Source: an uncultured Clostridia bacterium (GTDB lineage: Bacteria; Bacillota; Clostridia; TANB77; CAG-465). Taken from it: a DNA stretch of 64,000 bases. Of this stretch, positions 15,100 through 29,617 are shown in pieces. Both the position numbers and the translations under genes were made by a program. Each line of letters opens with the position of its first letter. Position 1 is the first letter of the stretch. Location of the stretch: the NCBI GenBank assembly GCA_947624625.1, contig CANQLD010000002.1, positions 415 to 64,414 of the forward strand, given 5' to 3'. Below the pieces are notes generated by a model. It had not been told where the DNA came from and did no database searches. It was given only the letters and a program-made list of their open reading frames with translations.

Positions 15100-18000
15100 T
15101 TAATTATTATTTAACTTAGTAAACTCAAATGTATATTTTGAGTATTGGTATACTCTAAAACCTTTCAAAATTATTTCAATTTTAGAGTTTTTTGTTACTC
15201 CATTACACAAATAACAAGTTTCTTCTCCATTATCTATATCTATTGCACATATTTTTTCTAAGTCGGGATAAAAAAGCTTTTTGTTAAAATATATAGCATT
15301 AGAAAGATAAATGTCCTTTCTTAAGTTAGTTATTTTTGAAAGAAAATCTGTACAAGTTACTTCATTACAAGTTTTGTCACTCATAGATAACAAAAATGCC
15401 TTACAAGTTTTTGGTTCAACAACAAGCCATTTTTGAGTTATTAAATCTGCAAAAATATATGGTGTTGTATGTTTACCAAAATTTTTAATTACAGTTTCTA
15501 TTGCATAAACATATGAAAATATAACTGATAAATCATTATGACCGTTAATAGAAGAGATATTTAAAACCAAATTATCTGGGTATGTTACATTGCCATCACA
15601 TTGCAAGTCAATATCCTTTAAGAATATTTGTTTTTCTTCTCTTTGAGCAGATAAGATATTTAACTTGCCATCAGGTGTTAAATAGCAACATAAAAAGACA
15701 TTTGTAAATGGAATTGCAAGCCCAGCTTTTGGATAGATTACTTTTCTTTTCAAAATTTCATCTTTATCTACTTCTAAATTATTAATAAACGGCTTTACTG
15801 AAAAGTACAGTTTATTTTCACATATTTTAATTATAAAATTATTGTTACACTCATAAAAAGAAGTTGCGTCTTCTAAATATTTTTTAGGTATACCTTTTTT
15901 TGAAAACTTACTTGGAATATTAGCTAAGTTACACTTCAATTTAGAAAAAGCATTTAATACAACGTTTTTTGTATCAGAGATTTCATCATCATTATCCTCT
16001 GTATCAGGATTTTTCTTCTCTTCTTTTTCTACTGGTATCTCAATATCTTCTAATTTGCTAATATAGTTTATTTTAGTATTATAAAGTCTAAAATATTCAT
16101 TAACTAAGTATTTGCCAATATTAAAACGTTTATCTTTTTCAAAAATGTCGAGAAAGGCATTTACAAGCTCATCAGACATCCAGCTCCAATCTTCAATAAT
16201 TGGAGGTACGATAACATCATAATCACCAAGTACAGAGATTCTTGAAACCATTCTTTCTCTTTGTTTTAACACTCTACCATTTTCATCCTTATATACACCA
16301 TTAAATGGATGCAAAAAAGTCAAAACGTAAAATGCCATTATAGCAAGAGAATAATAATCTCCTTCAAAAGAAGATACACAATATCCATAACCTTCTCTAC
16401 TTGTATCTGCTACAACAGACAGTGGGTCTAAGAAAGGCTCCGTATAAACAGTATACTGACCCGGTTTTATATTCGCACTATCTAAGTCAATAACAGATAC
16501 TTCTTTTGTAGATAGATTAAATAGAACGTTATTATGGCTTACATCACCAATATAAATACCATTTATATGGCAAAATTCAATTGCACTACAAAGATAAATA
16601 AGTATCTCTAACTTATCTTTAAGAGTTATATTATACTTTTCAACTTTAGAACGGTCTGTAAGTATTCTAAAAGGCTTACTATTTGTAATTTCCTCAATAA
16701 CAGGACCACAAAATTCGTCAGTTTCATCATCAAGAATTAGTCCAACTGTTTTAGGAATTTTAAAGTTGTACATTGAAGTATCTTGAGGATTAATTTTAGT
16801 AATTAATGTACTAATTACTCTTTTTTTATTTTCAAAGTTTTGTAAGTTCCTTGAAGATTCCTCATTATCATTTTCTCTGTAAATTTTACCCAAGAAACCA
16901 TTTTCTAAATCGTAAATAATTGCTTCACGCCCATCTTCAGAAAATATGGGTTTCTTTTCTACTACACTTCTTTTATATCCTTCTACTTTATATCCACACA
17001 AAGGACATTTTCCATATATTGTAGGAGAATAATAAATGTTATGGAAAATACAAAACTTATTTGTAGAATTTATATATTCTCCTAGAATAGCTATAGCATT
17101 TTCAAAATTTTCACAAATAATGTAAGTACTAAACAACTTTATACGTTCTTTATCAAAACCAATTGCAAGTTCAAAATATTTCTTAAGAAATGTCTTTACA
17201 TTTGGAGTTATAACACTACCTTCTTCTTTTGTAAGATAAATAATTTCATTAACATAAACTTTAAAAGAAGTAGAAAATGAAATAAGCTCTTCAACGTCAA
17301 AACCTTTAATAAGAGATAAATGATTTACTTTTAGCTTAATTAAAAACTTTACAAAACCACGAATACACTTTAAAATTTCTAAATTGCTAAGTGTATCAAT
17401 ATCAAGTAGTTTTCTTGATTTACTTTCATAAGAAAGATAACCAATACTTTCTTTGTCTGAGCCAAAGTCAAATACGTTTTTATAAACGATATTTTTTAAG
17501 TTTATACCTTTCAAATTTCTTGCAAAGTTTACAAAATCAACTTCATTTTTACTCTTTACATTAAGACATTTAAATTGCAAACCGTTTACAATATCAATAC
17601 TATAAAGATATGTGGTAAATAAATCGTTTGAAGAAATCCCTTCGTACTTCTTTGTAAATCCCCTTTTATTTACAAAGAAGTCATCTTTAAGAAAAGCTGG
17701 CGAAGGGGTAAAACTTGTAAGAGTTCCGACATCATTACGAAGTTTTGCTAAAAAATCATATATGCGTTTTGTTTCTTTGCACATAACACTACTTCCAGCA
17801 TACGGAATACCAACTCTAACATCCCTTACATCAAAATTTGCAAGTTTGTATAATTTATTTATAGCTTTAACATAGGTATTCATAATTTTATAACAAATTT
17901 CTTTTTCTTTATCTTCCTTATCTTCTATATAGTTAATCAATACATTTTGGTTTAAGTAGTTATCATTGTAAACACAGTTTGATATAATTCTTCTTAAATT

Positions 18001-20223
18001 TACATACGGTTTAAGTGTTTTGCTAAAACAAATTGAATTAATATCAATGTATACCATATACTTCATTGAGTGATTAATTATTTGTAATAGTAACATGATT
18101 ATATCAAATATTGCTCTTACACGGTCTTCATATTTAAGTTTTGCAATTAATTTATCAACATCTGATAAATACACATAATTTTTATAGCTTCTCGAAGGAA
18201 ATTTTAGACCATAAATCTCAAAATCATCAGATACTTTTACAGTTGAATAATAAACTATATTTTCAGGTGCACAAATTACAGAAAGCTTATAATTTGAACC
18301 ACTAGATATTTTAGATGCATACCTTTTTATTGAGCTTATATGCTTAAGTAATGAAGAAACTTCATCATAAGCAAGTCTATTTGTTTTTAAGATATTTACA
18401 TCATTTGTTGGTAAATCATCAACAAATACAGGTGGTAATTTTCTCGGAGAAACTACATATTTTGAATAAAAATTTAACCCATATATTGAATAATCTGCCA
18501 AAGTATTTTTAATAGCCCTAAAAAAGTAAAATTTATCAAAATCGCCACCAGTTATATAGCTCTCATAGTATTTTATAAAATAAGGTGACATTGAATATAC
18601 ATAATACTTACCTTCTATATACTCAATTTTCCCCTCTTTAATATTATAACTAACAAGTTGATTAAAAAAGCTAATAAAGCTTTTTACTATAAAATCAATA
18701 AATTCTTCAGAAAGCTTATTATTAGACTCTTTTTTTACAATTTCCATATTTTCAATATTTCTAAAAATTAAACTATTATTTGGAATATCAACTATAATAT
18801 CATCAAGTGTTAATTCCTTGTTAAAGTTTAGTACACCAACTCCATCAATTAAATTATATAAATCCTTTGAGTAAAATTCAAGAATCTTACTATAAAGCTC
18901 TTTAAAAGTTTTTAACATATTGCTACAATTTATATACTTTGAAAGTGGAACTATATCTTCACTAGAATCACCAGTAAAAACACCGTAATCTTCAATCATA
19001 AAACCAATTGGATGTTCTTGTCCATCTTGATATATAAGTTTAAATATTTTGTAGTCATTATCAAACCTACTACTAGAATACAATTTCATAAAATTCTTTA
19101 AAAAACAACAAAGAACTTTCATATTACTTAGTGATTCTTCATCATCTTTTTTATAAATTATATAACTTGTTCCCTTATAGGTTATAACATCATACAAGCA
19201 TGTCGAATATTTTACATCACCATTTTTAATAATCGCTCTATATGTATCTTCAGTAACATATGAAAGCACGTCACTTGCATAAGGAGATACTAAAAGCCGT
19301 TTCCGATTGTATACATTATTTCCAAATATCGCTAAGTTTTCAAATTCTTCAGTTACTACCTTAGCAAAATATGCTAAATCAACATTTTCATTTAACTTAA
19401 AAACTCTTTTATATAAATCAATAAACTGGGTAGATAAGTAATGAAAACATTCGTCTTCTAATACTTTACTATAGTAGTATTCACCAAAATTTTGAGTTGA
19501 AAAGTCACAAAAGTGCAGTTTAGTTGCGACATACTTTAAATAGCATTTTAAATTAAATGAATAATTTAACTTTTTATTTTCATTCAAAACCTTCAACTCA
19601 TGTATATTATTCATTGTAAGATATGGTATACCAGCTACATCATTAATTTCACTTGTTTCCACAATTTCATTAAAAAATGGGGCTTCTGAGATTAAAATAC
19701 CATTTGAAGATAAAAATACTATAAAATTTAAAAGTGCCATTAGATATTTGTATACGTTGTTTTCTTTAAAAGTCTCAATGTTGGTACCAGAATTAAATCT
19801 TAACTCTAAATGCTTGAAGTTACGAATTTTAACGACATTATTCCGACGTAATATTCCTAAATTTATATAGCGTTCATAGCCTATTTTTATTGAGTCAAGA
19901 TTTTCTTGTTTTTCTGGAATTTCATATCCAATAATTGCTTTTTTAGAATCATTATCCTCGTAAATACATACAAGTTTAGCTACATTAAATTTAATAAGAG
20001 ACGAATCATCATATGATTTTAAAATCTGAATAATTTTTTCAAAATTTTCTTTATCTGTTATTGGATTTTTAGGAATAACAATCTTACGAAAAGTCCCTAA
20101 ATCATAGTAATAATTTACTGCAGAACCATTTGGAGATTTAACATCATTATTTTGTAAATTCGCAGATAAAAATCTCGATTTAAGTCCCAAAGAAAAATTT
20201 TTTATACCAGCTTTTATGTTCAT
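15100..20223 (-). CDS. 1707-aa multi-domain protein: about four degenerate kinase-like modules, a zinc ribbon, one apparently active Ser/Thr-kinase-like core and an unknown C-terminal domain
   Basis: Uninterrupted ORF. Kinase signatures in one segment: GFLGKIY, CHINGIYIGDVSHNNVLF (D-x4-N), VSVIDLDSA, YTEPFLDP and DYYSLAIMAFYVLTFLHPFNG. A CxxH...CPLC ribbon lies just upstream. The context is vWA + PP2C neighbours. Confidence 0.75.
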   Translation of the reverse strand: MNIKAGIKNFSLGLKSRFLSANLQNNDVKSPNGSAVNYYYDLGTFRKIVIPKNPITDKENFEKIIQILKSYDDSSLIKFNVAKLVCIYEDNDSKKAIIGYEIPEKQENLDSIKIGYERYINLGILRRNNVVKIRNFKHLELRFNSGTNIETFKENNVYKYLMALLNFIVFLSSNGILISEAPFFNEIVETSEINDVAGIPYLTMNNIHELKVLNENKKLNYSFNLKCYLKYVATKLHFCDFSTQNFGEYYYSKVLEDECFHYLSTQFIDLYKRVFKLNENVDLAYFAKVVTEEFENLAIFGNNVYNRKRLLVSPYASDVLSYVTEDTYRAIIKNGDVKYSTCLYDVITYKGTSYIIYKKDDEESLSNMKVLCCFLKNFMKLYSSSRFDNDYKIFKLIYQDGQEHPIGFMIEDYGVFTGDSSEDIVPLSKYINCSNMLKTFKELYSKILEFYSKDLYNLIDGVGVLNFNKELTLDDIIVDIPNNSLIFRNIENMEIVKKESNNKLSEEFIDFIVKSFISFFNQLVSYNIKEGKIEYIEGKYYVYSMSPYFIKYYESYITGGDFDKFYFFRAIKNTLADYSIYGLNFYSKYVVSPRKLPPVFVDDLPTNDVNILKTNRLAYDEVSSLLKHISSIKRYASKISSGSNYKLSVICAPENIVYYSTVKVSDDFEIYGLKFPSRSYKNYVYLSDVDKLIAKLKYEDRVRAIFDIIMLLLQIINHSMKYMVYIDINSICFSKTLKPYVNLRRIISNCVYNDNYLNQNVLINYIEDKEDKEKEICYKIMNTYVKAINKLYKLANFDVRDVRVGIPYAGSSVMCKETKRIYDFLAKLRNDVGTLTSFTPSPAFLKDDFFVNKRGFTKKYEGISSNDLFTTYLYSIDIVNGLQFKCLNVKSKNEVDFVNFARNLKGINLKNIVYKNVFDFGSDKESIGYLSYESKSRKLLDIDTLSNLEILKCIRGFVKFLIKLKVNHLSLIKGFDVEELISFSTSFKVYVNEIIYLTKEEGSVITPNVKTFLKKYFELAIGFDKERIKLFSTYIICENFENAIAILGEYINSTNKFCIFHNIYYSPTIYGKCPLCGYKVEGYKRSVVEKKPIFSEDGREAIIYDLENGFLGKIYRENDNEESSRNLQNFENKKRVISTLITKINPQDTSMYNFKIPKTVGLILDDETDEFCGPVIEEITNSKPFRILTDRSKVEKYNITLKDKLEILIYLCSAIEFCHINGIYIGDVSHNNVLFNLSTKEVSVIDLDSANIKPGQYTVYTEPFLDPLSVVADTSREGYGYCVSSFEGDYYSLAIMAFYVLTFLHPFNGVYKDENGRVLKQRERMVSRISVLGDYDVIVPPIIEDWSWMSDELVNAFLDIFEKDKRFNIGKYLVNEYFRLYNTKINYISKLEDIEIPVEKEEKKNPDTEDNDDEISDTKNVVLNAFSKLKCNLANIPSKFSKKGIPKKYLEDATSFYECNNNFIIKICENKLYFSVKPFINNLEVDKDEILKRKVIYPKAGLAIPFTNVFLCCYLTPDGKLNILSAQREEKQIFLKDIDLQCDGNVTYPDNLVLNISSINGHNDLSVIFSYVYAIETVIKNFGKHTTPYIFADLITQKWLVVEPKTCKAFLLSMSDKTCNEVTCTDFLSKITNLRKDIYLSNAIYFNKKLFYPDLEKICAIDIDNGEETCYLCNGVTKNSKIEIILKGFRVYQYSKYTFEFTKLNNN
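16110..16950 (-). other. Predicted catalytic protein-kinase core within the 1707-aa protein
   Basis: The catalytic-loop Asp codon is at 16543..16545 (IGDVSHNN). The DLD (DFG-equivalent) is at 16480..16488. Domain boundaries are approximate. Confidence 0.6.
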
Positions 20224-20241
20224 AAAATCTGCCTCCTTATC

Positions 20242-20874
20242 TTAAACGTTTGAAAATAAATCGATTCCTTCAATCATACTCTTAGAACATTGTTTAATAG
20301 TATCAAACATATCCGTTAAACCTTTGCTATCTCTTTTGAATTTATGGATATGTTCATATCCAAGACTTAAAATCTCCTTGTTTCTGTGGCCAAAAAGAAG
20401 TAAGTGTGTCTCAACATTATTTTGTTTTAAATACCTTATTGCATTTTGTGCCTCGTTTAGATAGTAGCCACTTTCTTTGCTACCTTCATCTTTACCATCA
20501 GTTATAGTAAAGAAAATTGTTTTTAAGTTATATCCACTATTTTGAGCTTTTTTTATATAACCTTCATTAGGAAAAAGCAAACTTTCAGTTATTCTACAAA
20601 TAGAATAATAAAGAATACTTTTCCCACCAGTTATATAGCTTGAAGAAAAATCACTTGGCTTGCAAACATCTTTTTCTTCATAATTACCTGAAAAATCAGC
20701 TCTAAGTATTAATACAACTGAACTATCTTCTATACCGTTTAAAAAGCCTTTAATGTCCTCAAACTCACTTGATACCTGTTCTTCCCATTTTTTCATTGAT
20801 GATGACTTATCAATCAAAAAAACAAGCAACGTTGTATTGTCCGATTTTACAACTTGGTCGTAATTTAGTAACAT
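20242..20874 (-). CDS. von Willebrand factor A domain protein (TerY-like), copy B
   Basis: MIDAS elements LVFLIDKSSSM (DxSxS) and FFTITDGKDEG. ATG at 20874 is preceded by GGGAGG. The stop lies 18 nt before the kinase gene start. Confidence 0.75.
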   Translation of the reverse strand: MLLNYDQVVKSDNTTLLVFLIDKSSSMKKWEEQVSSEFEDIKGFLNGIEDSSVVLILRADFSGNYEEKDVCKPSDFSSSYITGGKSILYYSICRITESLLFPNEGYIKKAQNSGYNLKTIFFTITDGKDEGSKESGYYLNEAQNAIRYLKQNNVETHLLLFGHRNKEILSLGYEHIHKFKRDSKGLTDMFDTIKQCSKSMIEGIDLFSNV

Positions 20875-20934
20875 TTCAATTCCTCCCATTTTTACATTAA
20901 ATTATTTTTGTAATAAAACAGATTTTACAGGCTA

Positions 20935-20963
20935 ATTATATCAAAATATTATGTAAAAGTCAA
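20935..20963 (-). promoter_or_regulatory. Sigma-A consensus promoter of the vWA-B/kinase operon
   Basis: Minus strand reads TTGACT (20958..20963), a 17-nt spacer, then TATAAT (20935..20940). Confidence 0.6.
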
Positions 20964-21011
20964 TAATTATGTTAATTATAAATATATATAATATCAAATA
21001 ATTACTAATTA

Positions 21012-21051
21012 TTCAAAAAATAAAAGACTAAGAAATTATTCTTAATCTTTT
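21012..21051 (-). terminator. Rho-independent terminator ending the TelA-PP2C-vWA-A operon
   Basis: 13-bp stem AAAAGACTAAGAA/TTCTTAATCTTTT (one G-U pair) at 21022..21051, followed by TTTTTT on the minus strand. Confidence 0.65.
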
Positions 21052-21064
21052 ATTTTTATACTAG

Positions 21065-21745
21065 TTAGAAATTCTCAAGCCAATTGTCAACATTTACAAT
21101 TTCCATCTTGCTTTGACTGATAGTTGTTTGAGTTATAGCATCCATTATTTGAACCAAAGCATCTTCGCTATTTTCTGGATCATATATCGAAGTAAAGCCG
21201 AGCTTTCTTGGAATGCTTCCATTACGTCCACCAAAATCGATAAAAATCATTGTGATGTCATTTTCAAGTGCCTCTGTCACACTATTCATTGCATCATCAA
21301 AATCATATCCAGAACCTTCTTCATCAAGACAATGCTCCCCATCTGAAAAATAGATGTTAAAAAGTGTAGGTGTATACCCTTGTTCAATTAGGGACTTTTT
21401 GGTTTGAATTGAAGAGTTTACAGAAGAAACAATTGCTCCATAAAGATCTGTCCAACCGTTTGCAGTATAATTTGTTGAAATATTCCTTATGTTAAGGTAT
21501 TTGCTATCGTTGTAATAATCTGCAAAATCAACCCTCGAAACAAAAATCCGTGATGCTTCTTCAGATGAAGAAATCTTTCTTTTGTATTCTTCAAGACATT
21601 CTCTCATAATTGATTCGTAACTATGCATTGAACTTGAACAGTCAAGTACTAATTTATAGAAATGCCCATCCATTGTACTTGGTGTTTCAAATAGGGTATC
21701 ATCCCCTTTAACACTGAATTCTTTCATCTTTTTTAAAACTGACAT
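21065..21745 (-). CDS. von Willebrand factor A domain protein (TerY-like), copy A
   Basis: MIDAS elements LVLDCSSSM, NGWTDLYGAI and IYFSDGEH. ATG at 21745 is preceded by GGAGGA. Confidence 0.75.
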   Translation of the reverse strand: MSVLKKMKEFSVKGDDTLFETPSTMDGHFYKLVLDCSSSMHSYESIMRECLEEYKRKISSSEEASRIFVSRVDFADYYNDSKYLNIRNISTNYTANGWTDLYGAIVSSVNSSIQTKKSLIEQGYTPTLFNIYFSDGEHCLDEEGSGYDFDDAMNSVTEALENDITMIFIDFGGRNGSIPRKLGFTSIYDPENSEDALVQIMDAITQTTISQSKMEIVNVDNWLENF

Positions 21746-21772
21746 TTTAAATCCTCCATTCATTTTTGTTTT

Positions 21773-22816
21773 TTATTCGTCGTCATTATTTAAAAAATTT
21801 AAAAGTTCTTCTTGCTTATTTTTCAAAGCTAAAGTATCAAAGCTTTTTTCAGCTTCTACAATCAAATCTTCAATACTAAAAAGTACAATAAAAAAATCAC
21901 CATTACTTAAAAAAGCTACTAAATTAGATATGTTCATTGTTTTAATCTTACTAAATTTTTCTCGTAACTCATCATAATATGTAGATTTTTTCAAACCTTC
22001 AATTTGTTCCTCTAGATTATTTAAATCGTGCATAAGAGGTACTAAATATTCAGATTTAAAATCCTCTTGATAGTTATACGACAAGTTATGAACTTTAGAA
22101 TATCTAATTGTACACTTTTCCAAAATATAGAAAAGTGTTGTGTATATATCTTTTAAGTTATTTGTATTAATTAAGTCATTAATTGAACTTTTAGAGAGTG
22201 TTTCTTCACCAAATACCCTTATTAAAATTTCTGAGATTTTTGATCTTGCCTGTGAAATACACTCCCTAAAACTTCCTTTATACTTTCCACGAATATACTG
22301 ATTATAATACTTAGATATTTCAGTATACAACTTAGTAAATCTATCTAAAAGAATTTTAGATAATGCTTCAAAGGTTATAAAATCATCAATCTCAGCCTGA
22401 ACTTTTCTAATTTTGTCAAGTAGTTCCTTGTTATATAATGGATTACAAGTAAAAACTAACTCATTACTTGTCATTGCTTTTACATATGCTTCATACTCTT
22501 GCTTACACTCTTTTTCAAGTTTATCAAGTTTTAAATTGAATTCTACGAACTCATTAGGACTTACAATTTCAATTCTTGAAAGTTTAGTTCTAAGAGAGTT
22601 AATATCGTCAATTAAAGTATTGCTTGCAACAAAAGGAAAATCAACTTTACTACCTTCCTCTTTAGAAGTACTTTCTGCCTCTTTAACAGCTTCTTCATCA
22701 TTTTGTTCATTAGATGTAGATTGATTTTTAAAAGAAAAATTAAAACTATCTTTTTTACTCAAAAGTTTCTCAAGAATCATTTTGTATAAATAGTTTAATT
22801 TATCTAGTAACTTCAC
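21773..22816 (-). CDS. Hypothetical protein, predicted mostly helical, with an acidic Ser/Glu-rich N-terminal region
   Basis: 347-aa ORF with a GTG start 8 nt after GAGGGGAG. It sits inside the TelA-PP2C-vWA operon. I recognise no family. Confidence 0.55.
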   Translation of the reverse strand: MKLLDKLNYLYKMILEKLLSKKDSFNFSFKNQSTSNEQNDEEAVKEAESTSKEEGSKVDFPFVASNTLIDDINSLRTKLSRIEIVSPNEFVEFNLKLDKLEKECKQEYEAYVKAMTSNELVFTCNPLYNKELLDKIRKVQAEIDDFITFEALSKILLDRFTKLYTEISKYYNQYIRGKYKGSFRECISQARSKISEILIRVFGEETLSKSSINDLINTNNLKDIYTTLFYILEKCTIRYSKVHNLSYNYQEDFKSEYLVPLMHDLNNLEEQIEGLKKSTYYDELREKFSKIKTMNISNLVAFLSNGDFFIVLFSIEDLIVEAEKSFDTLALKNKQEELLNFLNNDDE

Positions 22817-22833
22817 ATATTTTCTCTCCCCTC

Positions 22834-23775
22834 TTATGAGTAATTTTCATACTCAAGTTCAATACTATCTGCACCAAGCATAGCTAAAACTTCAACGTTT
22901 TCTTTATCAAGTACGTAAAATGTTAAGTTTATATCTCTTCCTTTAAAAGATTTAATGCAGCTTTGAGCAATACTTATTGAAGAGGAAGTTATATCATATA
23001 ACATATCTTTACCGTTACAAACAACACATATATTTTTTACCTTTGGAATAAAATAATCTCTACTTAACCTAAAAGTTGTAAAATATCTTCTAGAAATTGG
23101 TGTATGAATACCACTATCTAGCATCTTTAAGCAAGATTCCTTTTCCTTAATGGCGACCTCTAAGCAGCGGTCTAAATAATTCTTTTTCTCAATTTCAAAT
23201 TCTTTAGCTGTAATACAATTAGGCAGTTCAATATTTAAAGACTTTTCGTCAATCATTTTAATTAAATCAGCAATATTTAGACTTTGACTTGGAAAATCGC
23301 CACTATAAAAAGCCTTTTGTATTTCAGAAATATATTCTTCTGTTTCAGAAATTTTACTTACTTCAAGAATAGCAGTTGCCGAAAGCAATGTGTCATTTCT
23401 AAAAAAGAAACAATAATCACTTGTTAAATTTTTAGGTAATAATTTTTCTGCAACCCTCAAAAATTCTTCCTCAGTTATCCGTATATCAAAAACAAATATG
23501 GTAACAGTTTTTGTAAGTTGGGTTCTGTAGTTGTTTGGAAAAACGAAAGGTGCATAATATGGATAGTATTTATCATTTTTAAGTAATTCCCTTTCTTTTT
23601 TTTCGTCTACATAAACAACAGTTGCCGAGTTTTTGGAATTATTATCCCAATAGTCTCCTTGATATGGATAAGGATAAGAGCCTCCGTAATTTACTTGCTG
23701 CTTATTTACTGGAGGTTCATAATCAACAAAGCCATCAACGATTTCTTTTAAAATTTTAGTTACCTTTTTACCCAT
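22834..23775 (-). CDS. Hypothetical protein with a Tyr/Pro-rich N-terminus
   Basis: 313-aa ORF whose ATG overlaps the PP2C stop (ATGGGTAA). Contains GGSYPYPYQGDYWDNN. An alternating strand/helix pattern (TIFVFDIRITEEE, ICVVCNGKD) could be a MIDAS-less vWA-like fold, but this is unverified. Confidence 0.55.
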   Translation of the reverse strand: MGKKVTKILKEIVDGFVDYEPPVNKQQVNYGGSYPYPYQGDYWDNNSKNSATVVYVDEKKERELLKNDKYYPYYAPFVFPNNYRTQLTKTVTIFVFDIRITEEEFLRVAEKLLPKNLTSDYCFFFRNDTLLSATAILEVSKISETEEYISEIQKAFYSGDFPSQSLNIADLIKMIDEKSLNIELPNCITAKEFEIEKKNYLDRCLEVAIKEKESCLKMLDSGIHTPISRRYFTTFRLSRDYFIPKVKNICVVCNGKDMLYDITSSSISIAQSCIKSFKGRDINLTFYVLDKENVEVLAMLGADSIELEYENYS

Positions 23776-24493
23776 TTTGATTACCTCCTAAAAGTAAAAT
23801 TGTAGTATCGTCACAAAGATAATTTTTAAAAGACTTTATATAATTGTTTAATCTAGTATTTGCTTTATCTTCACTTAAGAAGTCAGAATTAGAAAGATAA
23901 AATTCTAGCTTTTCTTTCCCTTCTTTTCCTATACCATTAATTTTTTTTACAAAAGGATCAATACCATCGCTGGCAATACCTACAGCTTTAAAATATTCTT
24001 TCTTAAAGACATATTTTTTAAACTTAAGTTTAGGCTTGTCACTCATACAATAGTTGTATACAAGATAAGGTGGTTTGTTATGGTCATACGAAAAATGTAT
24101 ATACGAAAACATTCCACGTTTGTTTTGAGTAATTATATACCCGTCACCAAGTATATATACAATAAAATCGTCCTTTGTTTCAAAACAAGAAAGTAACGTA
24201 AAAAAGAGATTGTTTACAAGTAAATCAGTTGTATAGTTTCCGTCATTACAAATTTGCTTGTTATACTTTTGAAGCAAGCTTATTAACATCTCCATTATAT
24301 AGGTTATGTTTTCTTCAAATTTTTCTTCCTCATTACAAGTAGGAATTCCACCAAAAAGTTGAAGAATAAGCCTTGTACCAACTTCGCTATATTTACTTCT
24401 ACTGCAACCATCTGCTAACACACCAAAATTTTTGCCTGTTAAACAGAAATCTTGATTTGCATTGTGCTCTTTTCCTATAACTGATGCATACAT
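23768..24493 (-). CDS. PP2C-family Ser/Thr protein phosphatase-like protein
   Basis: N-terminal SVIGKEHNANQDF...GVLADGCS pattern and a later ILGDGYII/IASDGI pattern, as in bacterial PP2C_2-type phosphatases. ATG at 24493 is preceded by GGAGTG. Confidence 0.65.
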   Translation of the reverse strand: MYASVIGKEHNANQDFCLTGKNFGVLADGCSRSKYSEVGTRLILQLFGGIPTCNEEEKFEENITYIMEMLISLLQKYNKQICNDGNYTTDLLVNNLFFTLLSCFETKDDFIVYILGDGYIITQNKRGMFSYIHFSYDHNKPPYLVYNYCMSDKPKLKFKKYVFKKEYFKAVGIASDGIDPFVKKINGIGKEGKEKLEFYLSNSDFLSEDKANTRLNNYIKSFKNYLCDDTTILLLGGNQNG

Positions 24494-24519
24494 ATAGTTC
24501 ACTCCATTCCGTAACAATT

Positions 24520-25776
24520 TTACCACTCAAGTTTGTTTCCACTACCAGTTTTCTTGGTGGAAGTAGAAGTTTTTAGTCTGTCATATACAGTTTCTTCATC
24601 GTCAGCTTCTCCCTCACCAAGTAATGTAGCATTAAACTTACTTGATTTTTCAATAGCCTTTGCACGTCCGTGTTGTTCACTTTCTGCTTCTCTTACGCAT
24701 TTTTCAAACATTTCCTTACCTTCGTTAAATGCTTTTACTAAAACGTCAATGCACTGATTAACAACTTCTGCATCAACGTCACCCTTAGTAAGCAAACCAA
24801 CAATGTCAACAAAATTTGCCGCATGTGTATTTGCATTTTCAATCATAAGATTTTTGTTAAGCTCATTAAGCCCTTTGTAGCCATCAACCATTGAACGAAC
24901 CTTTTCAGCAAAAATAGCATTTCTTGCATTTTGACTGAAAATATTAAGGATTGTATCTTTAGCTGTGGTATACAAAAATTCCATTGCATTAAGCTCACCT
25001 ATTGTTGAGTTAATGAAGTTAGAAGAAAGATAAGTCGACTCTCTTTCCTCATCACGTTTTTTAAGTACAAGACTCATAATATTTAGTCCATTTTTTATAT
25101 CTTGAAATCTAAATAATTCATCCGTACTTAAAGCCACTGAATCTCCGTTTTCTTTCAACTGTTCTGCCTCTTCTTTAAAATGTTCCATAGCTATCAAACC
25201 CGCAATAATGTAGTCAGTAAGACTATCAATTGTCTCCTTATCCATTAAAGAAAGTTCTTTAGCTCTAGTATTTAAATTTTTGCACATACTTGCTTGTTTA
25301 TCCAAAGCAAGACCTAATTCTTCAAGAATTTCAGCAGAATTTTTCGCCTTTAAACTCATATCCTCTTTTTCCTTGTTACCAATAAACAAAGAAATCATTT
25401 TTTGGATAAAATTCTTTTCCTTTTGAACAATTTGCAGCTGACTAATTTCATCCTTCGACTTTGCAGAAAGTTCTGCAATTCGTTTAACCAGTTCTTCATC
25501 CTCTTTTTCTCCTGCCATTTCCTTCAAAAAATCCATATTTGCATTAGTGGATTTAACCGAAACATTTGAAGCATAGGCCATAACCTTATCCGTTGATGTA
25601 ACATCAATTTGCTCTGCAAGAGCTAAAACAGCTTCCCGTCTTTCGACTGGTAAAAGCCCGGCAGACTTTGCAGTAAGCATTGGCAGTGATGGAACATCAC
25701 TTTCATTTACTTCCACTATACTTGTTGTTTCTTCCGTCAATTCTTCCACCGTGTTTACGTTTTTCTCTTCAACCAT
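24520..25776 (-). CDS. telA: TelA-like (toxic anion resistance) family protein
   Basis: 418 aa. Shows the TelA-like N-terminal pattern LPVERREAVLALAEQIDVTSTDKVMAYASNV and a long helical body. ATG at 25776 is preceded by AGGAGG. Confidence 0.65.
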   Translation of the reverse strand: MVEEKNVNTVEELTEETTSIVEVNESDVPSLPMLTAKSAGLLPVERREAVLALAEQIDVTSTDKVMAYASNVSVKSTNANMDFLKEMAGEKEDEELVKRIAELSAKSKDEISQLQIVQKEKNFIQKMISLFIGNKEKEDMSLKAKNSAEILEELGLALDKQASMCKNLNTRAKELSLMDKETIDSLTDYIIAGLIAMEHFKEEAEQLKENGDSVALSTDELFRFQDIKNGLNIMSLVLKKRDEERESTYLSSNFINSTIGELNAMEFLYTTAKDTILNIFSQNARNAIFAEKVRSMVDGYKGLNELNKNLMIENANTHAANFVDIVGLLTKGDVDAEVVNQCIDVLVKAFNEGKEMFEKCVREAESEQHGRAKAIEKSSKFNATLLGEGEADDEETVYDRLKTSTSTKKTGSGNKLEW

Positions 25777-25847
25777 TTTCAAATCCTCCTTGTAATTTTT
25801 AATTAACTTCCTTACTATAGAAAGTATAGATATAATTATGTAAAGAC

Positions 25848-25911: not shown

Positions 25912-25951
25912 CAAACAAAAAATAGTGGTCTAAAATTTAGACCACTATTTT
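25912..25951 (-). terminator. Rho-independent terminator after the Clp_N-AAA-M41 gene
   Basis: Perfect 12-bp stem AATAGTGGTCTA/TAGACCACTATT (25921..25949), followed by TTTTTG on the minus strand. Confidence 0.8.
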
Positions 25952-25984: not shown

Positions 25985-28120
25985 TTAACAAGATGCTACA
26001 TTTGCACAATTGCAATTTTGATAAATTTTATCTAAGTCAGATTTAACCAAAATACAATTTTTTACTAAGGCATTTGCAACTACATTCAAAAATTCTGAGT
26101 TATCAGCAAGTATTTCTTTTGCTCGTTTATATTGCTCAGCCAAAATTTGATTAATCTTAGAATTAATCATATTAATACATTCATTACTCGAATCAAGAAT
26201 ATTACTTTCAGCTCCATAAGAAGCAATACCAATATCTTTATCCATACCAAAAACTGAGATATAATTTTTAGCAATACTTGTTGCTTGTTCAAGATCATTT
26301 GTTGGACCAGTTGTCACAATACCAAATCTCATCTCTTCAATTGCCTTTCCAGCTAACAAAGTTGCAATTTCGTCAAGACAATACTTGCTATCAAAATTTA
26401 CAAAAAAATCATTTTTTTCAGTTACATTAACACCTAAATACGTTGATGTAGGTAAAATTGATATTGCTATTACATCATCTTTTTTTATAGAGCTAGTCAT
26501 TTTAGCAACAACATAATGTGCTGCTTCGTGGTATGCAATTTGCAAAACATCTTCTTTAGCCATACCATTAAATAGCTCTATACTATTTAAAAATACTTGT
26601 TTTACGTGTTGTTTTGTAACTTTGTCACTACCAGCAAGTTTTGCAACTACCATAGCTCTATCACATAAATCAAGTGTTTTATCAGGATTAGACGAATCAA
26701 TGTTAAAACACGAAGAAGCAGTTATAATAAACTTCAAAACACCATTTGCAAGACTTACATTATGGAATTTTTTAAGTGCTTCAACTTTTTTACTTATCAT
26801 TTGTTCTACTTTGTCATATTTAGGTTCTTTAACTTCAATTACTTCAAACCTTCTTTTATATGCTTTATCTGACTCAATAAAGTATTTATATTCTTCAAAA
26901 GTTGTTGTACCAATTACAATTGTATCATCTCTTGAAAGAATTGGTTTTAAAGCACCACTTAAATCACTTGTTCCTCCTTCAGATGTACCAGCACCTCTAG
27001 TTCTATGTATTTCATCAATAAAGAGAATTACATTATGAGTCATATTGATAAACTCTTTAAAAAGAACGATTTTTTCTTCAAACTCGCCTCTATATTTAGT
27101 ACCTGCAACAAGAGAGTCAATATCAAAGTTTACAACTAAATAATTTTCAAATTCTTTAGGGCACTCCTTATTTACAATTTGTTGAGTAAGAGCTTCAACA
27201 ATTGCTGTTTTACCAACACCTGGCTTACCAACAAGAATCGAATTTCGTTTAGTTTTCTTTGAAATAATACTCCAAAGTTGTGCAATCTCTTTATCTCTAC
27301 AAAGAATTTCGCATTTTTGACCTTTTTTATATTTATTATTTAAGACTTCACAACAATTCTCAAGTGCAGAAGGTATAAGCAGTGAATTTTTACTGCCACC
27401 TTTAGTTTTAAAGATATTTGAATTATTTTCAATATACCTTATAAAATCGTCAATTGTAACATTATTCATTACATCATCAATTATCATCTTCATAAGCTTA
27501 TATGCACTTGATTCTGGTATTTTAAGAAGATAATAAATGATAGGGTCAATCACTAAAACTTTAGAATTAGTTTTTTTGCACTGAACAGAGGCTTTTTCTA
27601 ATGCCTCATAAAGTGAAACTGAAAACTTTATTGTAATATCTGTTAAATACTCTTGTTCCTTTAACATCTCAGTTTGTTCATTTATTACGTCTTCTACGTA
27701 TTTTTCAACGTTTTCTTTAATTATTGCTTTAGCATCAATAAACTTGCCATCACCATTTTCGTCACTTGCACCCGAATCATTTTCTTCGTCACTTTCATTA
27801 GCTTCTTCTTCGTTTTCGTCTGAATTTTCTTCTTCTTCATCACCAAAAAAGTAATCACAAAATTCGTCATCAAATACACTTGCAAAAACAGAAGGATTGG
27901 TTACGATAGTGTTAATTATATCCGAAGCGTCAAGTGCTAACCCATTCTCAATGAAAAACTTTTCAATTACTGTTTCCTTTTGTGCTATTGCCCCAATAAG
28001 GAAGTAAGCCGACCGTATAGCTTGATCTTCAAATTTAGTTTGCAAAATAGTTGCTTGTTGCAAAGCATTTCTAACAACTGAACTAACCGGAATGTTAGTA
28101 TAATCTGTAAATTTTTTCAT
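25985..28120 (-). CDS. Soluble chimeric AAA+ metalloprotease: Clp_N-like repeats + ClpA/B/C D1-type AAA module + FtsH-type M41 peptidase domain
   Basis: Walker A ILVGKPGVGKTAIVEAL, then AGTKYRGEFEEK, Walker B ILFIDEIH, KRRFEVIEV and PDKTLDLCDRA (Clp D1 signatures). These are followed by AYHEAAHYVVA (HExxH, 26516..26530) and TTGPTNDLEQAT as in FtsH. No TM helix is evident. ATG at 28120 is preceded by AAGGAGG. Confidence 0.8.
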   Translation of the reverse strand: MKKFTDYTNIPVSSVVRNALQQATILQTKFEDQAIRSAYFLIGAIAQKETVIEKFFIENGLALDASDIINTIVTNPSVFASVFDDEFCDYFFGDEEEENSDENEEEANESDEENDSGASDENGDGKFIDAKAIIKENVEKYVEDVINEQTEMLKEQEYLTDITIKFSVSLYEALEKASVQCKKTNSKVLVIDPIIYYLLKIPESSAYKLMKMIIDDVMNNVTIDDFIRYIENNSNIFKTKGGSKNSLLIPSALENCCEVLNNKYKKGQKCEILCRDKEIAQLWSIISKKTKRNSILVGKPGVGKTAIVEALTQQIVNKECPKEFENYLVVNFDIDSLVAGTKYRGEFEEKIVLFKEFINMTHNVILFIDEIHRTRGAGTSEGGTSDLSGALKPILSRDDTIVIGTTTFEEYKYFIESDKAYKRRFEVIEVKEPKYDKVEQMISKKVEALKKFHNVSLANGVLKFIITASSCFNIDSSNPDKTLDLCDRAMVVAKLAGSDKVTKQHVKQVFLNSIELFNGMAKEDVLQIAYHEAAHYVVAKMTSSIKKDDVIAISILPTSTYLGVNVTEKNDFFVNFDSKYCLDEIATLLAGKAIEEMRFGIVTTGPTNDLEQATSIAKNYISVFGMDKDIGIASYGAESNILDSSNECINMINSKINQILAEQYKRAKEILADNSEFLNVVANALVKNCILVKSDLDKIYQNCNCANVASC

Positions 28121-28169
28121 TAAAGACTCCTCCTTTAATATAAGTAAGTATAATATATTATTTAAACAA

Positions 28170-28198
28170 ATTATACCTTCCGAATTTCGAATTGTCAA
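28170..28198 (-). promoter_or_regulatory. Sigma-A consensus promoter of the Clp_N-AAA-M41 gene
   Basis: Minus strand reads TTGACA (28193..28198), a 17-nt spacer, then TATAAT (28170..28175). Confidence 0.6.
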
Positions 28199-28242
28199 TA
28201 AAAATGAAAAAATACCACAATTTTTATCAAAAAGTGGCATTA

Positions 28243-28731
28243 TTAAAATAAATAACGATATATTTTATCTTTCCAATAATTATACAATTTTTCAAAACTA
28301 TAACAAGCATTTGTTGGAGAAGTTGATGGCAAGACCTCACATTCAATTTTAATATTTTCTTTATTATACTTACAAAATAATTCATAAGCTTTTTTACCAT
28401 TAAAAAAGATTTTTCTAATATTACTTTTATCTATAATGTATTTTAATTCATTAACTTCAACGTTTTTTATATTACTATCAAGTGAGCCCTCTATATCACA
28501 TTTTTTTATAACATCATATATCGCTATGTTATTTTTAAGTAACATTTCTTTTTTTTGTGATATAGTTTCAATATTATTCTCATTTAAAATTTTAGACATA
28601 AGTTTCCAAAATCTATTTTGTGGATGAGCATAATAGAAATTATTTTCTCTTGATTTAACAGACGGAAAACTTCCAAGTATTAAAATTTTACTATTTTTAT
28701 CATAAATTGGTTTAAATGTATGTTCTAACAT
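28243..28731 (-). CDS. UDG-superfamily DNA glycosylase (DNA-deoxyinosine glycosylase-like)
   Basis: 162 aa. Motifs ILILGSFPSVKS, FYYAHPQNRFW and LPSTSPTNA. Confidence 0.7.
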   Translation of the reverse strand: MLEHTFKPIYDKNSKILILGSFPSVKSRENNFYYAHPQNRFWKLMSKILNENNIETISQKKEMLLKNNIAIYDVIKKCDIEGSLDSNIKNVEVNELKYIIDKSNIRKIFFNGKKAYELFCKYNKENIKIECEVLPSTSPTNACYSFEKLYNYWKDKIYRYLF

Positions 28732-28744
28732 AAAATACTACCTA

Positions 28745-29617
28745 TTATTCAATATAATTCTCTTTGTCTTCAATATTCTTTTGTAAATTTGGTTCTTCAT
28801 TACTTTTTATATTCTCTATTTCCTCATTACTTTTTACCATACCTTGTAAATCCTTACTAAAATCTGAAGTGTCAGCTATAACATTTTCATTACTATTGCT
28901 TAAATTAGATAAATCATTATTAGGTGGATTAAGCATTTTTGTATTTTTATTCCTAGTAAACATATCTTTAAATTTAGAAAATACTTTTAGGAAAGTTTCT
29001 TTTACCTCAACTGGATAAGATTTTAATGAATTTAATTTAGTATTATTAGTTAATTTGTGCAAATTTAGTTTATCTACTAATTCTTGTGAAGGTACATACT
29101 CTCCTTTTTCTATTTCTTCTTCTGTTTTTTCTCTTGAAATAATATTTCCTTTTTCATCTAAATCAAGTACCATTTGCACTTTTGTAGCACAACTATTATT
29201 TAGTTCATACTTACCTTTATATACAATTGCGTCATCATTAAATGAACGTTGTTTAAAGTTTGACAAAATTTCTCTTGCTTTCTCAGTTGGTACTTCGTTA
29301 TTTTGTGCGTCCTTTTTTAAGTCTATTTTTACTGCACTAAATTCATAACTTGTTGAACTACTTGAAACGTTTCTAAGTAAATCGTTATATGAAGGCTTTC
29401 CTGCAAAGAAAAAACATTTTTTACTACCCATTGAAATAAAATTACTACTTGGTTTTATATACCCACTTTCTAAAATTTTATCTGCATTTTCTGGAGTAGT
29501 TACGTGGTATAATCCATTATTAATAATTTCATTATTCATTTTTTCATCAACTTTTGTATAAATCATTTTAGTTGCAAGAATACCAGAATTTATAGCAATA
29601 AAAGTTCCTAATATCAT
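28745..29617 (-). CDS. Hypothetical N-terminally membrane-anchored protein
   Basis: 290-aa ORF with a 4-nt overlap (ATGA) with the plsC stop. It has an N-terminal hydrophobic helix and a low-complexity Asn/Glu-rich C-terminus. No family assigned. Confidence 0.5.
   Translation of the reverse strand: MILGTFIAINSGILATKMIYTKVDEKMNNEIINNGLYHVTTPENADKILESGYIKPSSNFISMGSKKCFFFAGKPSYNDLLRNVSSSSTSYEFSAVKIDLKKDAQNNEVPTEKAREILSNFKQRSFNDDAIVYKGKYELNNSCATKVQMVLDLDEKGNIISREKTEEEIEKGEYVPSQELVDKLNLHKLTNNTKLNSLKSYPVEVKETFLKVFSKFKDMFTRNKNTKMLNPPNNDLSNLSNSNENVIADTSDFSKDLQGMVKSNEEIENIKSNEEPNLQKNIEDKENYIE

What the first reader, a model, noticed from the sequence alone, without database searches (positions are those of the whole stretch)
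25985..28120. Soluble chimera of a Clp/Hsp100 D1-type AAA+ module with an FtsH-type M41 zinc peptidase
**Seen in sequence.**
- The N-terminus has two Clp_N-like helical repeats split by an acidic linker (DEEEENSDENEEEANESDEEND).
- The AAA module carries ClpA/B/C D1 signatures rather than FtsH ones: GKPGVGKTAIVEAL, AGTKYRGEFEEK, ILFIDEIH, KRRFEVIEV and PDKTLDLCDRA.
- It is fused directly to a domain that aligns with the FtsH protease: AYHEAAHYVVA, ISILPTSTYLGV, LLAGKAIEEMRFG and TTGPTNDLEQAT.
- No transmembrane segment is visible.

**Established knowledge.** Canonical M41 proteases (FtsH) are membrane-anchored and use their own AAA subtype. Clp ATPases normally hand substrates to the separate ClpP protease.

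**Inference.** A self-contained cytosolic unfoldase-metalloprotease with a Clp_N substrate/adaptor-binding domain, encoded next to a kinase/phosphatase/vWA module, is a plausible regulated effector.
Basis: partly seen in the sequence, partly recalled or inferred. Interest (0 to 1): 0.7.

Follow-up and report, generated by a model that had tools for sequence, protein, structure and literature searches.

The report
Soluble Clp-type ATPase fused to FtsH-type protease
This gene encodes a membrane-free, single-chain ATP-driven protein shredder that joins the front half of a Clp unfoldase to the zinc protease of FtsH; it belongs to a real, widespread family in low-GC gut bacteria for which I found no study, and it looks like a stand-alone housekeeping enzyme, not a part of the neighbouring kinase module.

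Summary
Window 25985-28120 (minus strand) encodes a 711-aa protein. It has a divergent double-repeat Clp N-domain split by a disordered acidic insert, a Clp/Hsp100 D1-type AAA+ module with a Clp D1 lid, and a complete M41 zinc peptidase (HEAAH plus Asp609). No transmembrane segment is present and there is no room upstream for one.

It is not a one-off. An exhaustive profile search finds about 110 clusters at 50% identity, and 219 sequences carry both near-complete domains. HExxH is present in 218 of 219. All sampled loci have 24-30% GC.

The AAA module groups with Clp D1 (bootstrap 79) and never with FtsH/p97 (0).

The gene has its own perfect sigma-A promoter and its own terminator. A relative with the same flanking genes lacks the module, and five other lineages lack any conserved partner. 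Near-perfect TTGACA-17-TATAAT promoters precede the gene in all nine lineages sampled.

Most likely it is an autonomous cytosolic hexameric ATP-dependent metalloprotease. I found no curated family model and no paper describing it. Verdict: a new variant of a known kind, moderately to highly interesting. Activity is inferred, not shown.

The parts
28170..28198 (-). Sigma-A type promoter, TTGACA-17 nt-TATAAT, 12 of 12 matches
   Evidence: An equivalent promoter (0-1 mismatch) lies 63-117 nt upstream of the start codon in all 9 lineages examined.
28127..28136 (-). Ribosome-binding site AAAGGAGGAG, 6 nt before ATG 28120
   Evidence: Sequence read directly.
25985..28120 (-). Coding sequence of the 711-aa Clp_N / D1-AAA+ / M41 protein, stop codon included
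27845..28096 (-). Clp N-domain repeat 1 (residues 9-92)
   Evidence: HHalign against Clp N-domains, probability 97.9%. Helices with pLDDT 81-91.
27734..27844 (-). Disordered acidic insert (residues 93-129). A 40-residue window starting at residue 82 has net charge -21.
   Evidence: pLDDT below 50 for residues 96-129. Charge computed. Forms an insertion relative to Clp N-domains.
27401..27733 (-). Long helix plus Clp N-domain repeat 2 (residues 130-240)
   Evidence: ClpC structures align from residue 128.
26822..27358 (-). Clp D1-type AAA+ large subdomain (residues 255-433)
   Evidence: Foldseek to ClpC1 D1 (8yd1_E): TM 0.87, rmsd 2.4 A, 33% identity.
27206..27229 (-). Walker A motif GKPGVGKT (residues 298-305)
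   Evidence: G298, G301, V302, G303 and K304 are invariant in 35 family members.
27086..27106 (-). Clp D1 pore-1 loop AGTKYRG (residues 339-345)
   Evidence: At least 90% conserved. The same motif used as a scan pattern retrieved Clp genes across bacterial phyla.
27005..27028 (-). Walker B motif ILFIDEIH (D369, E370)
   Evidence: Invariant.
26849..26854 (-). R423 and R424 of the KRRFE motif. The putative arginine finger R397 lies at 26930-26932.
   Evidence: R423 and R424 are invariant and R397 is at least 90% conserved. Their roles are assigned by analogy with ClpB/ClpA D1 from general knowledge.
26591..26821 (-). Clp D1 lid (AAA_lid_9, model positions 5-70 of 104) plus connecting helices (residues 434-510)
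   Evidence: AAA_lid_9 is found in 35 of 35 members and AAA_lid_3 in none.
26021..26563 (-). M41 zinc peptidase domain (residues 520-700)
   Evidence: Pfam 1.5e-32 with full-length model coverage. FtsH structures match at 3.5e-21.
26516..26530 (-). Zinc-binding and catalytic motif HEAAH (residues 531-535)
   Evidence: H531, E532 and H535 are invariant. HExxH is present in 218 of 219 family proteins.
26294..26296 (-). Asp609 in TGPTNDL, the predicted third zinc ligand
   Evidence: Invariant. Its role is assigned by analogy with the GASND Asp of FtsH, from general knowledge.
25919..25951 (-). Intrinsic terminator: 15-bp stem, 3-nt loop and T-run, 34 nt after the stop codon

Best explanation
The gene encodes an autonomous, cytosolic, single-chain AAA+ protease.

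Proposed mechanism (inferred, by analogy with FtsH and Clp machines):
- Six subunits form a two-tier ring.
- The flexible Clp-type N-domain, with its acidic disordered insert, selects substrates or adaptors.
- The Clp D1-type ATPase ring grips polypeptides with its KYRG tyrosine pore loops and threads them, using ATP, into a chamber formed by the M41 ring.
- There the HEAAH/Asp609 zinc site cuts them.
- In effect the M41 ring occupies the place that D2 plus ClpP hold in ClpAP/ClpCP, and the Clp N-domain plus D1 occupy the place of FtsH's membrane anchor and its own AAA module.

Shown here: the domain composition, absence of transmembrane segments, conservation of all catalytic residues across a diverse family, Clp-D1 ancestry of the ATPase, a monocistronic unit with a conserved consensus sigma-A promoter, and the lack of any conserved gene partner.

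Inferred: hexamer formation, ATP-dependent proteolysis, a housekeeping or regulatory role in low-GC Firmicutes, and a modest unfolding power typical of a lone D1 ring.
For: - Architecture: (35 of 35 members carry M41, AAA and AAA_lid_9).
- Catalytic residues: Walker A and B, R423/R424, H531/E532/H535 and D609 are invariant in 35 members that are 29-70% identical to the window protein. HExxH is present in 218 of 219.
- Structure: the model has pLDDT 80.8. The AAA-plus-M41 part superposes on the AFG3L2 protomer (6nyy_F) and an FtsH protomer (3kds_F), both with target-normalised TM 0.68. D1 alone superposes on ClpC1 D1 with TM 0.87.
- Solubility: maximum hydropathy 1.19. Among the 10 highest of the 19 family windows above 1.6 (the ones listed), most lie inside the AAA or M41 folds and two (P0162, P0214) lie near the N-terminus.
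- Family size: about 110 clusters at 50% identity give full-length matches among 1.84 billion representatives.
- ATPase ancestry: the family is monophyletic in 99 of 100 bootstraps, groups with Clp D1 in 79, and with FtsH/p97 in 0. Its sister group is a set of compact two-ring Clp ATPases.
- Independent expression: own promoter and terminator, with a near-perfect sigma-A promoter in all nine lineages examined and no CtsR or CIRCE operator.
- Location: chromosomal housekeeping neighbourhoods. None of the matches on 72,556 plasmids or 50,697 phage records covers 80% of the protein.
Against: - There are no biochemical data. Hexamer formation and coupling between a Clp D1 ring and an M41 ring are untested.
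- The D1 lid is shortened: it matches Pfam model positions 5-70 of 104.
- A lone D1 ring may be a weak motor.
- The N-domain is very divergent. Pfam Clp_N reaches significance in only 1 of 35 members, so its ligand cannot be predicted.
- Adjacency to the TelA-like/PP2C/vWA/kinase module is kept in two species, so a lineage-specific functional link cannot be excluded.
- The organisms could not be named, and co-occurrence with ClpP, ClpC, Lon or FtsH was not examined.
Confidence: 0.7

Rival explanations
1. Regulated effector of the adjacent signalling module. On this reading the protease is switched on or off, or given substrates, by the downstream TelA-like, PP2C phosphatase, two vWA proteins and the 1707-aa Ser/Thr kinase. 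This would be a TerY-P-like stress or defence system.
For: - The module lies directly downstream on the same strand.
- The adjacency is kept in the closest relative, which is 61% identical.
- TerY-P-type triads are known to pair with varied effectors (PMC10542128, read).
Against: - A terminator and a separate promoter lie between the two units.
- A relative with the same flanking genes lacks the whole module.
- Five other lineages have no kinase, PP2C or vWA gene nearby.
- The TelA-like protein has only two homologues in a database of 5.8 billion proteins, whereas the protease family is broad.
- PADLOC gives no TerY-P match, and only a weak AAA-level IetA match (1e-6) for the protease.
Confidence: 0.12
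2. Chaperone or disaggregase with a scaffolding pseudo-protease. The M41 ring would serve only to hold the hexamer together, as in plant FtsHi proteins, and the protein would unfold or remodel clients without cutting them.
For: - Inactive M41 domains exist elsewhere, for example FtsHi (PMC8197885, seen only as a title and abstract in the listings).
- Clp D1 rings occur in non-proteolytic ClpB.
Against: - H531, E532, H535 and D609 are invariant.
- HExxH is retained in 218 of 219 members spread over about 110 clusters at 50% identity. This indicates selection on catalysis.
Confidence: 0.08
3. Artefact: an assembly or gene-calling fusion of separate clp-like and ftsH-like genes, or a decaying pseudogene.
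For: - One locus has a second copy split into 569-576 aa plus 113 aa.
- The mechanical ORF list extends the gene to 751 aa.
Against: - The same uninterrupted architecture is found in hundreds of independent assemblies from NCBI, ENA, JGI and Logan.
- Length is consistent, with a median of 677 aa.
- The junction and the motifs are conserved.
Confidence: 0.01

Closest known systems
FtsH / AAA proteases of MEROPS family M41 (FtsH, AFG3L2, YME1)
   Same: - One chain carries an AAA+ module followed by an M41 zinc peptidase with HExxH plus a downstream Asp.
- The Pfam M41 model is covered end to end.
- The predicted protomer superposes on FtsH and AFG3L2 protomers with TM 0.68.
   Different: - There are no transmembrane helices and no periplasmic domain.
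- The ATPase is not the FtsH-type classical AAA. It groups with Clp D1 and has AAA_lid_9 rather than AAA_lid_3.
- It has a Clp N-domain.
- It scores 108 bits against a cut-off of 600 for TIGR01241.
Class I Clp/Hsp100 ATPases (ClpA, ClpC, ClpE, ClpB), and especially compact two-ring Clp ATPases such as P0290 and P0291
   Same: - It has a double-repeat N-domain.
- Its D1 module has GVGKTA, the KYRG pore loop, DE Walker B, RRF and the D1 lid.
- ClpC is the best-matching solved structure by sequence (1.9e-51).
- Its sister clade in the tree is a set of two-ring Clp ATPases.
   Different: - It has no D2 (AAA_2) module, no D2-small domain, no M-domain, and therefore no ClpP-docking loop.
- A metalloprotease is covalently attached instead.
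- The N-domain carries a long acidic insert.
- It scores 234 bits against a cut-off of 993 for the ClpA model.
Lon protease
   Same: The same working logic: a soluble single-chain AAA+ protease with an N-terminal substrate-recognition domain, forming a self-compartmentalised ring (general knowledge).
   Different: It is unrelated in its parts. Lon has an HCLR-clade ATPase and a Ser-Lys peptidase. The only Lon-related match was a weak hit to the P-loop.
TerY-P triad (vWA, PP2C, Ser/Thr kinase) signalling and defence modules
   Same: The neighbouring genes include two vWA-like proteins, a PP2C and a protein kinase.
   Different: The protease is not part of that module in most lineages. PADLOC TerY-P models do not match the neighbours. 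The kinase here is a 1707-aa giant.

Membership tests
FtsH (TIGR01241 / M41 AAA protease) | N-terminal transmembrane helices flanking an extracytoplasmic domain | tested here: not met
   Maximum KD19 is 1.19. FtsH_ext is absent in 35 of 35 members. There is no upstream coding space.
FtsH (TIGR01241 / M41 AAA protease) | FtsH-type classical AAA module with AAA_lid_3 | tested here: not met
   The FtsH model aligns only at positions 412-597. Family plus classical AAA has bootstrap support 0 of 100. AAA_lid_3 is absent and AAA_lid_9 is present in 35 of 35.
FtsH (TIGR01241 / M41 AAA protease) | M41 peptidase domain with HExxH and a third Asp zinc ligand | tested here: met
   Pfam 1.5e-32 with full model coverage. 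H531, E532, H535 and D609 are invariant.
FtsH (TIGR01241 / M41 AAA protease) | Whole-protein score above the curated cut-off | tested here: not met
   108.2 bits against a cut-off of 600.
Class I Clp/Hsp100 (ClpA/ClpC/ClpB) | Double-repeat Clp N-domain | tested here: met
   HHalign probability 97.9%, E 3.8e-13, both repeats aligned. Pfam Clp_N reaches significance in only 1 of 35 members, so the domain is divergent.
Class I Clp/Hsp100 (ClpA/ClpC/ClpB) | D1 AAA+ module with D1 lid | tested here: met
Class I Clp/Hsp100 (ClpA/ClpC/ClpB) | Second AAA+ module D2 (AAA_2) with D2-small domain and ClpP-binding loop | tested here: not met
   No AAA_2 or ClpB_D2-small match in 35 of 35 members. M41 follows the D1 lid directly.
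Class I Clp/Hsp100 (ClpA/ClpC/ClpB) | Whole-protein score above the curated cut-off (ClpA, ClpB, ClpV models) | tested here: not met
   233.7 against 993, 209.5 against 1232 and 200.1 against 885 bits.
Active AAA+ unfoldase (generic) | Walker A Lys, Walker B Asp-Glu, arginine finger and aromatic pore loop conserved | tested here: met
   K304, D369, E370, R423 and R424 are invariant. R397 and Y343 are at least 90% conserved.
Active AAA+ unfoldase (generic) | Hexameric ring and ATP-dependent substrate translocation | not testable with these tools
   Only a monomer model could be made.
TerY-P type module (as an effector component) | Conserved co-occurrence and co-transcription with a vWA/PP2C/kinase triad | tested here: not met
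   Present in 2 of 8 lineages only. A terminator and a separate promoter intervene. No PADLOC TerY-P matches.

The most novel reading that the evidence does not exclude
This family would be a previously unrecognised class of bacterial cytosolic AAA+ protease. A Clp D1 ring would feed an FtsH-type zinc-protease chamber directly, with no membrane anchor, no D2 ring and no ClpP. It would have arisen inside the Clp radiation when an M41 domain replaced D2, and it would be constitutively expressed in many low-GC gut Firmicutes. That would add a further type to the textbook set of ClpXP, ClpAP/ClpCP, HslUV, Lon and FtsH.
Probability: 0.55. Interest if true: 0.7.

Novelty: new variant of a known kind. 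Interest (0 to 1): 0.6.

Why it matters
Bacterial ATP-dependent proteolysis is usually taught as a small fixed set of machines, and M41 proteases are treated as membrane enzymes by definition. This family breaks both habits.

- **A natural module swap.** A soluble M41 protease driven by a Clp D1 ring and addressed by a Clp N-domain shows that AAA+ rings and protease chambers can be exchanged between families.
- **A test of D1 power.** It offers a way to ask whether a lone D1 ring can drive degradation.
- **An easier M41 system.** A soluble enzyme would be more tractable for M41 mechanism and structure work than membrane-bound FtsH.
- **An unstudied proteostasis component.** The sampled loci come largely from metagenome assemblies, some from the human gut, and all have 24-30% GC. 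The conserved consensus promoter suggests the gene is well expressed.

Tried and rejected
1. **Genome-collection scan wasted.** These are shared by all Clp ATPases, so all 80 loci returned were ordinary clpC/clpB/clpA genes. No organism names were obtained for the family. The result does show that these motifs are Clp D1 signatures.
2. **Exact look-ups failed.** The 711-aa window protein and the neighbouring TelA-like protein P0293 are not in the gene-position index. The source assembly could not be identified.
3. **Literature.** Seven full-text searches on Clp/M41/FtsH fusion wording, TerY-P and soluble FtsH and three papers read found no description of this architecture. The Anantharaman 2012 Ter paper (PMC4104200) is not held. 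The FtsH ternary systems of Kaur et al. 2020 are a different thing: a double FtsH-type AAA with MoxR and vWA.
4. **Defence-system reading.** PADLOC gave only weak AAA-level matches (IetA 1e-6, TRIP13 at 0.002). Rejected.
5. **Mobile-element origin.** No match on plasmids or phages covers 80% of the protein. Rejected.
6. **RNA elements and heat-shock operators.** There are no Rfam hits in the window and no CtsR or CIRCE boxes upstream in nine lineages.
7. **First tree attempt.** It used a distance formula that produced invalid values at high divergence. It was redone with a cap. Only one bacterial FtsH AAA sequence (from L070), plus p97 and Cdc48 modules, was available as the classical-AAA reference.
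8. **Motif regular expressions.** My patterns for Walker B, the pore loop and the Asp ligand were too strict for the wider set. I cite only the HExxH count from that call and rely on alignment A1 for the other residues.
9. **One script call returned no answer** and was repeated.
Full report
**1. What is at the coordinates**

The finding maps to one ORF on the minus strand. The mechanical ORF list gives 25985-28240 (751 aa). The real start is ATG 28120, which gives 711 aa.
- It is preceded by AAAGGAGGAG, 6 nt upstream.
- A perfect TTGACA-17-TATAAT promoter lies at 28198-28170.
- The extra 40 codons run through that promoter.
- The upstream UDG-family gene ends at 28243, so nothing upstream can supply transmembrane helices.

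**2. Domain composition**

Pfam finds a complete Peptidase_M41 (1.5e-32, residues 522-699, model 5-191 of 191), AAA (9e-12) and AAA_lid_9, the Clp D1 lid (3.5e-6).

NCBIfam's best matches are:
- ClpA at 3.8e-69, residues 134-508 on model positions 53-422, which is the N-domain plus D1 only;
- ClpB and ClpV1 next;
- the FtsH model, which aligns only through its protease part (model 412-597).

All of these scores are far below the curated cut-offs, so the protein belongs to no curated family in NCBIfam release 20.

Against solved structures, the first 44 matches are Clp/Hsp100 proteins matched through D1 (ClpC 1.9e-51). FtsH follows through residues 520-700 (3.5e-21).

The N-terminal 250 residues are too divergent for Pfam Clp_N, which is significant in only 1 of 35 relatives. 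A profile-profile comparison with genuine Clp N-domains gives probability 97.9%, E 3.8e-13 and 135 aligned columns. Both repeats are covered, and residues about 90-160 form an insertion.

AlphaFold2, run with the family alignment, gives mean pLDDT 80.8. Residues 96-129, the acidic stretch, are disordered.

Hydropathy peaks at 1.19 over 19 residues, so there is no transmembrane segment.

**3. It is a family, not a singleton**

A word-indexed search of 5.8 billion proteins returned 106 clusters at 90% identity with the same architecture, all 450-800 aa and none usefully named.

An exhaustive HMMER search of 1.84 billion representatives with the family profile returned about 110 representatives at 50% identity that match end to end.

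Among all sequences fetched, 219 carry near-complete AAA and M41 modules, with a median length of 677 aa. Of these, 218 keep HExxH.

In an alignment of 35 members that are 29-70% identical to the window protein, the following are invariant:
- Walker A residues G298, G301, V302, G303 and K304;
- Walker B residues D369 and E370;
- R423 and R424;
- H531, E532 and H535;
- D609.

The KYRG pore loop and R397 are at least 90% conserved. All 35 carry M41, AAA and AAA_lid_9. None carries AAA_lid_3, FtsH_ext, AAA_2 or ClpB_D2-small.

The sampled loci have 24-30% GC. Several lie near genes typical of spore-forming Firmicutes, such as Spo0A_C and DUF4364 proteins. The organisms could not be named.

**4. 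Origin of the ATPase**

I built a neighbour-joining tree of 71 AAA modules over 256 columns with 100 bootstraps. It contained:
- 30 family modules;
- 28 Clp D1 modules;
- 8 Clp D2 modules;
- one bacterial FtsH module;
- the D1 and D2 modules of p97 and Cdc48.

Results:
- The family is monophyletic in 99 of 100 replicates.
- Family plus Clp D1 form a split in 79.
- Family plus classical AAA (FtsH/p97) form a split in 0.
- Clp D1 without the family is never monophyletic, so the family nests inside the D1 radiation.
- Its sister group is a pair of compact two-ring Clp ATPases with the architecture Clp_N, AAA, lid_9, AAA_2.

Mean BLOSUM62 distances agree: family to D1 0.68, family to FtsH 0.89, family to D2 0.88.

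Structurally, D1 superposes on ClpC1 D1 with TM 0.87 and rmsd 2.4 A. The AAA-plus-M41 part superposes on AFG3L2 and FtsH protomers with TM 0.68.

Alignments to ClpC and ClpA end at about residue 500, which corresponds to ClpC residue 404-416. M41 begins at about residue 520. The simplest history is that an M41 domain replaced D2 in a Clp-type ancestor. This is an inference.

**5. Relation to the neighbouring kinase/phosphatase/vWA genes**

Downstream on the same strand lie, in order:
- a TelA-like protein;
- a PP2C phosphatase;
- two proteins with no family match;
- two vWA-like proteins;
- a 1707-aa protein with a kinase domain.

Three lines of evidence argue against a functional unit with the protease.
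1. A 15-bp-stem terminator follows the protease stop codon (25951-25919), and the TelA-like gene has its own 11/12 promoter with a TG extension (25876-25848).
2. Only the closest relative (61% identity) has the module. A 42%-identical orthologue keeps the flanking order cmk, plsC, UDG, protease, then bipA and GH94, but has an unrelated pilin-like gene in place of the module. In the window's lineage the module is therefore an insertion between the protease gene and bipA.
3. Five further lineages place the gene among unrelated housekeeping genes, with no kinase, PP2C or vWA gene and no conserved neighbour of any kind.

The TelA-like protein has only two homologues in the large database, whereas the protease family is broad. 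PADLOC models for TerY-P do not match the neighbours.

**6. Expression signals**

In all nine lineages examined, the gene is preceded, 63-117 nt before the start codon, by TTGACA-17-TATAAT. Seven have no mismatch and two have one. Eight of the nine also have a GGAGG-type ribosome-binding site; L004 does not. No CtsR or CIRCE operator was found.

In the 3.3 kb around the window gene, only one 12/12 site exists on either strand. The gene thus looks like an independently transcribed unit read by the housekeeping sigma factor. It does not look like a member of the classical clp heat-shock regulons.

**7. Mechanism proposed**

By analogy with FtsH and Clp machines (general knowledge), six subunits would form an ATPase ring stacked on an M41 ring.
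- The mobile N-domain recruits substrates or adaptors.
- The D1 pore-loop tyrosines translocate the chain.
- The HEAAH/Asp609 zinc sites cleave it inside the chamber.

An acidic, disordered insert between the two N-domain repeats is common in the family. A 40-residue window of net charge -8 or lower occurs in 177 of 208 N-regions. The window copy, at -21, is the most acidic of the members printed. The insert might bind basic clients or act as an autoinhibitory pseudo-substrate. This is speculation.

A lone D1 ring may give limited unfolding force, which would suit unfolded or disordered substrates. This is inference from ClpA work, recalled from memory.

**8. Comparison and novelty**

The protein works like FtsH or Lon, as a single-chain AAA+ protease, but it fails the membership tests for both parent families.
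- For FtsH it lacks the membrane anchor and the FtsH-type AAA module, and it scores below the cut-off.
- For class I Clp it lacks D2 and the ClpP loop, and it scores below the cut-off.

No dedicated Pfam or NCBIfam model exists. No family member is on plasmids or phages. Seven literature searches found no description. The family members are present in public sequence collections, so the architecture has surely been seen by automated pipelines. As far as I could determine, it is unstudied.

I rate it a new variant of a known kind, with interest 0.6. The rating would be higher if activity is shown. It would be lower if a publication outside the searchable library already covers the family.

Noticed in passing
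window 15100-25782, minus strand: A seven-gene block sits between the protease gene and bipA. It encodes a TelA-like protein (420 aa), a PP2C (252 aa), two proteins with no family match (313 and 347 aa), two vWA-like proteins (232 and 215 aa) and a 1707-aa protein with a kinase domain at residues about 1190-1355. It resembles a TerY-P triad plus TelA, but no PADLOC model matches. It is absent from a relative with the same flanking genes. The TelA-like protein has only two homologues among 5.8 billion proteins.
   Followed up: partly
L096 8001-10772 (protein P0154): A 923-aa family variant has two tandem D1-type AAA modules before the M41 domain (Clp_N, AAA, AAA, lid_9, M41). The identical protein is seen on at least 5 contigs from different samples, so it is unlikely to be an assembly error.
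   Followed up: partly
L094 and L095, 8001-10019 and 10871-12902: Two paralogues of the family flank a PAP2 phosphatase gene. The second is called as two overlapping ORFs (569 or 576 aa, plus 113 aa carrying the end of M41). This could be a frameshifted pseudogene or a sequencing error that recurs in two samples.
   Followed up: no
window 28243-28731; L001 9376-9876; L004 9354-9851; L096 10885-11145: A small UDG-superfamily glycosylase gene lies immediately next to the protease gene in four lineages. It is upstream in three and appears as a downstream fragment in the fourth, which is otherwise not syntenic. This may be residual synteny or a weak conserved linkage.
   Followed up: no
upstream of the family gene in the window and in L001, L004, L006, L008, L090, L092, L094, L096: All nine lineages have a near-perfect TTGACA-17-TATAAT promoter, and eight of the nine (not L004) a GGAGG-type ribosome-binding site. 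This is an unusually strict conservation of consensus signals for one gene across proteins only 30-60% identical.
   Followed up: yes
plasmid NZ_CP139695.1 (Limimaricola variabilis), 88039-90216, hit H1: An 'AAA family ATPase' gene lies directly next to an ftsH gene, and together they cover residues 240-671 of the query in two pieces. This is an unfused Clp-like plus FtsH pair on a plasmid. It is reminiscent of heat-resistance or protein-quality-control islands (that resemblance is from memory).
   Followed up: no
window 28745-29617, minus strand: A 290-aa protein with an N-terminal hydrophobic segment (KD 1.57) and no Pfam match lies between plsC and the UDG gene. It is conserved at 63% identity in L001 and absent from L004.
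   Followed up: no
window 7279-12885, minus strand: A very large (1868 aa) protein carries Glycoamylase and GH94 supersandwich domains. It is conserved next to bipA in the related L004 contig.
   Followed up: no
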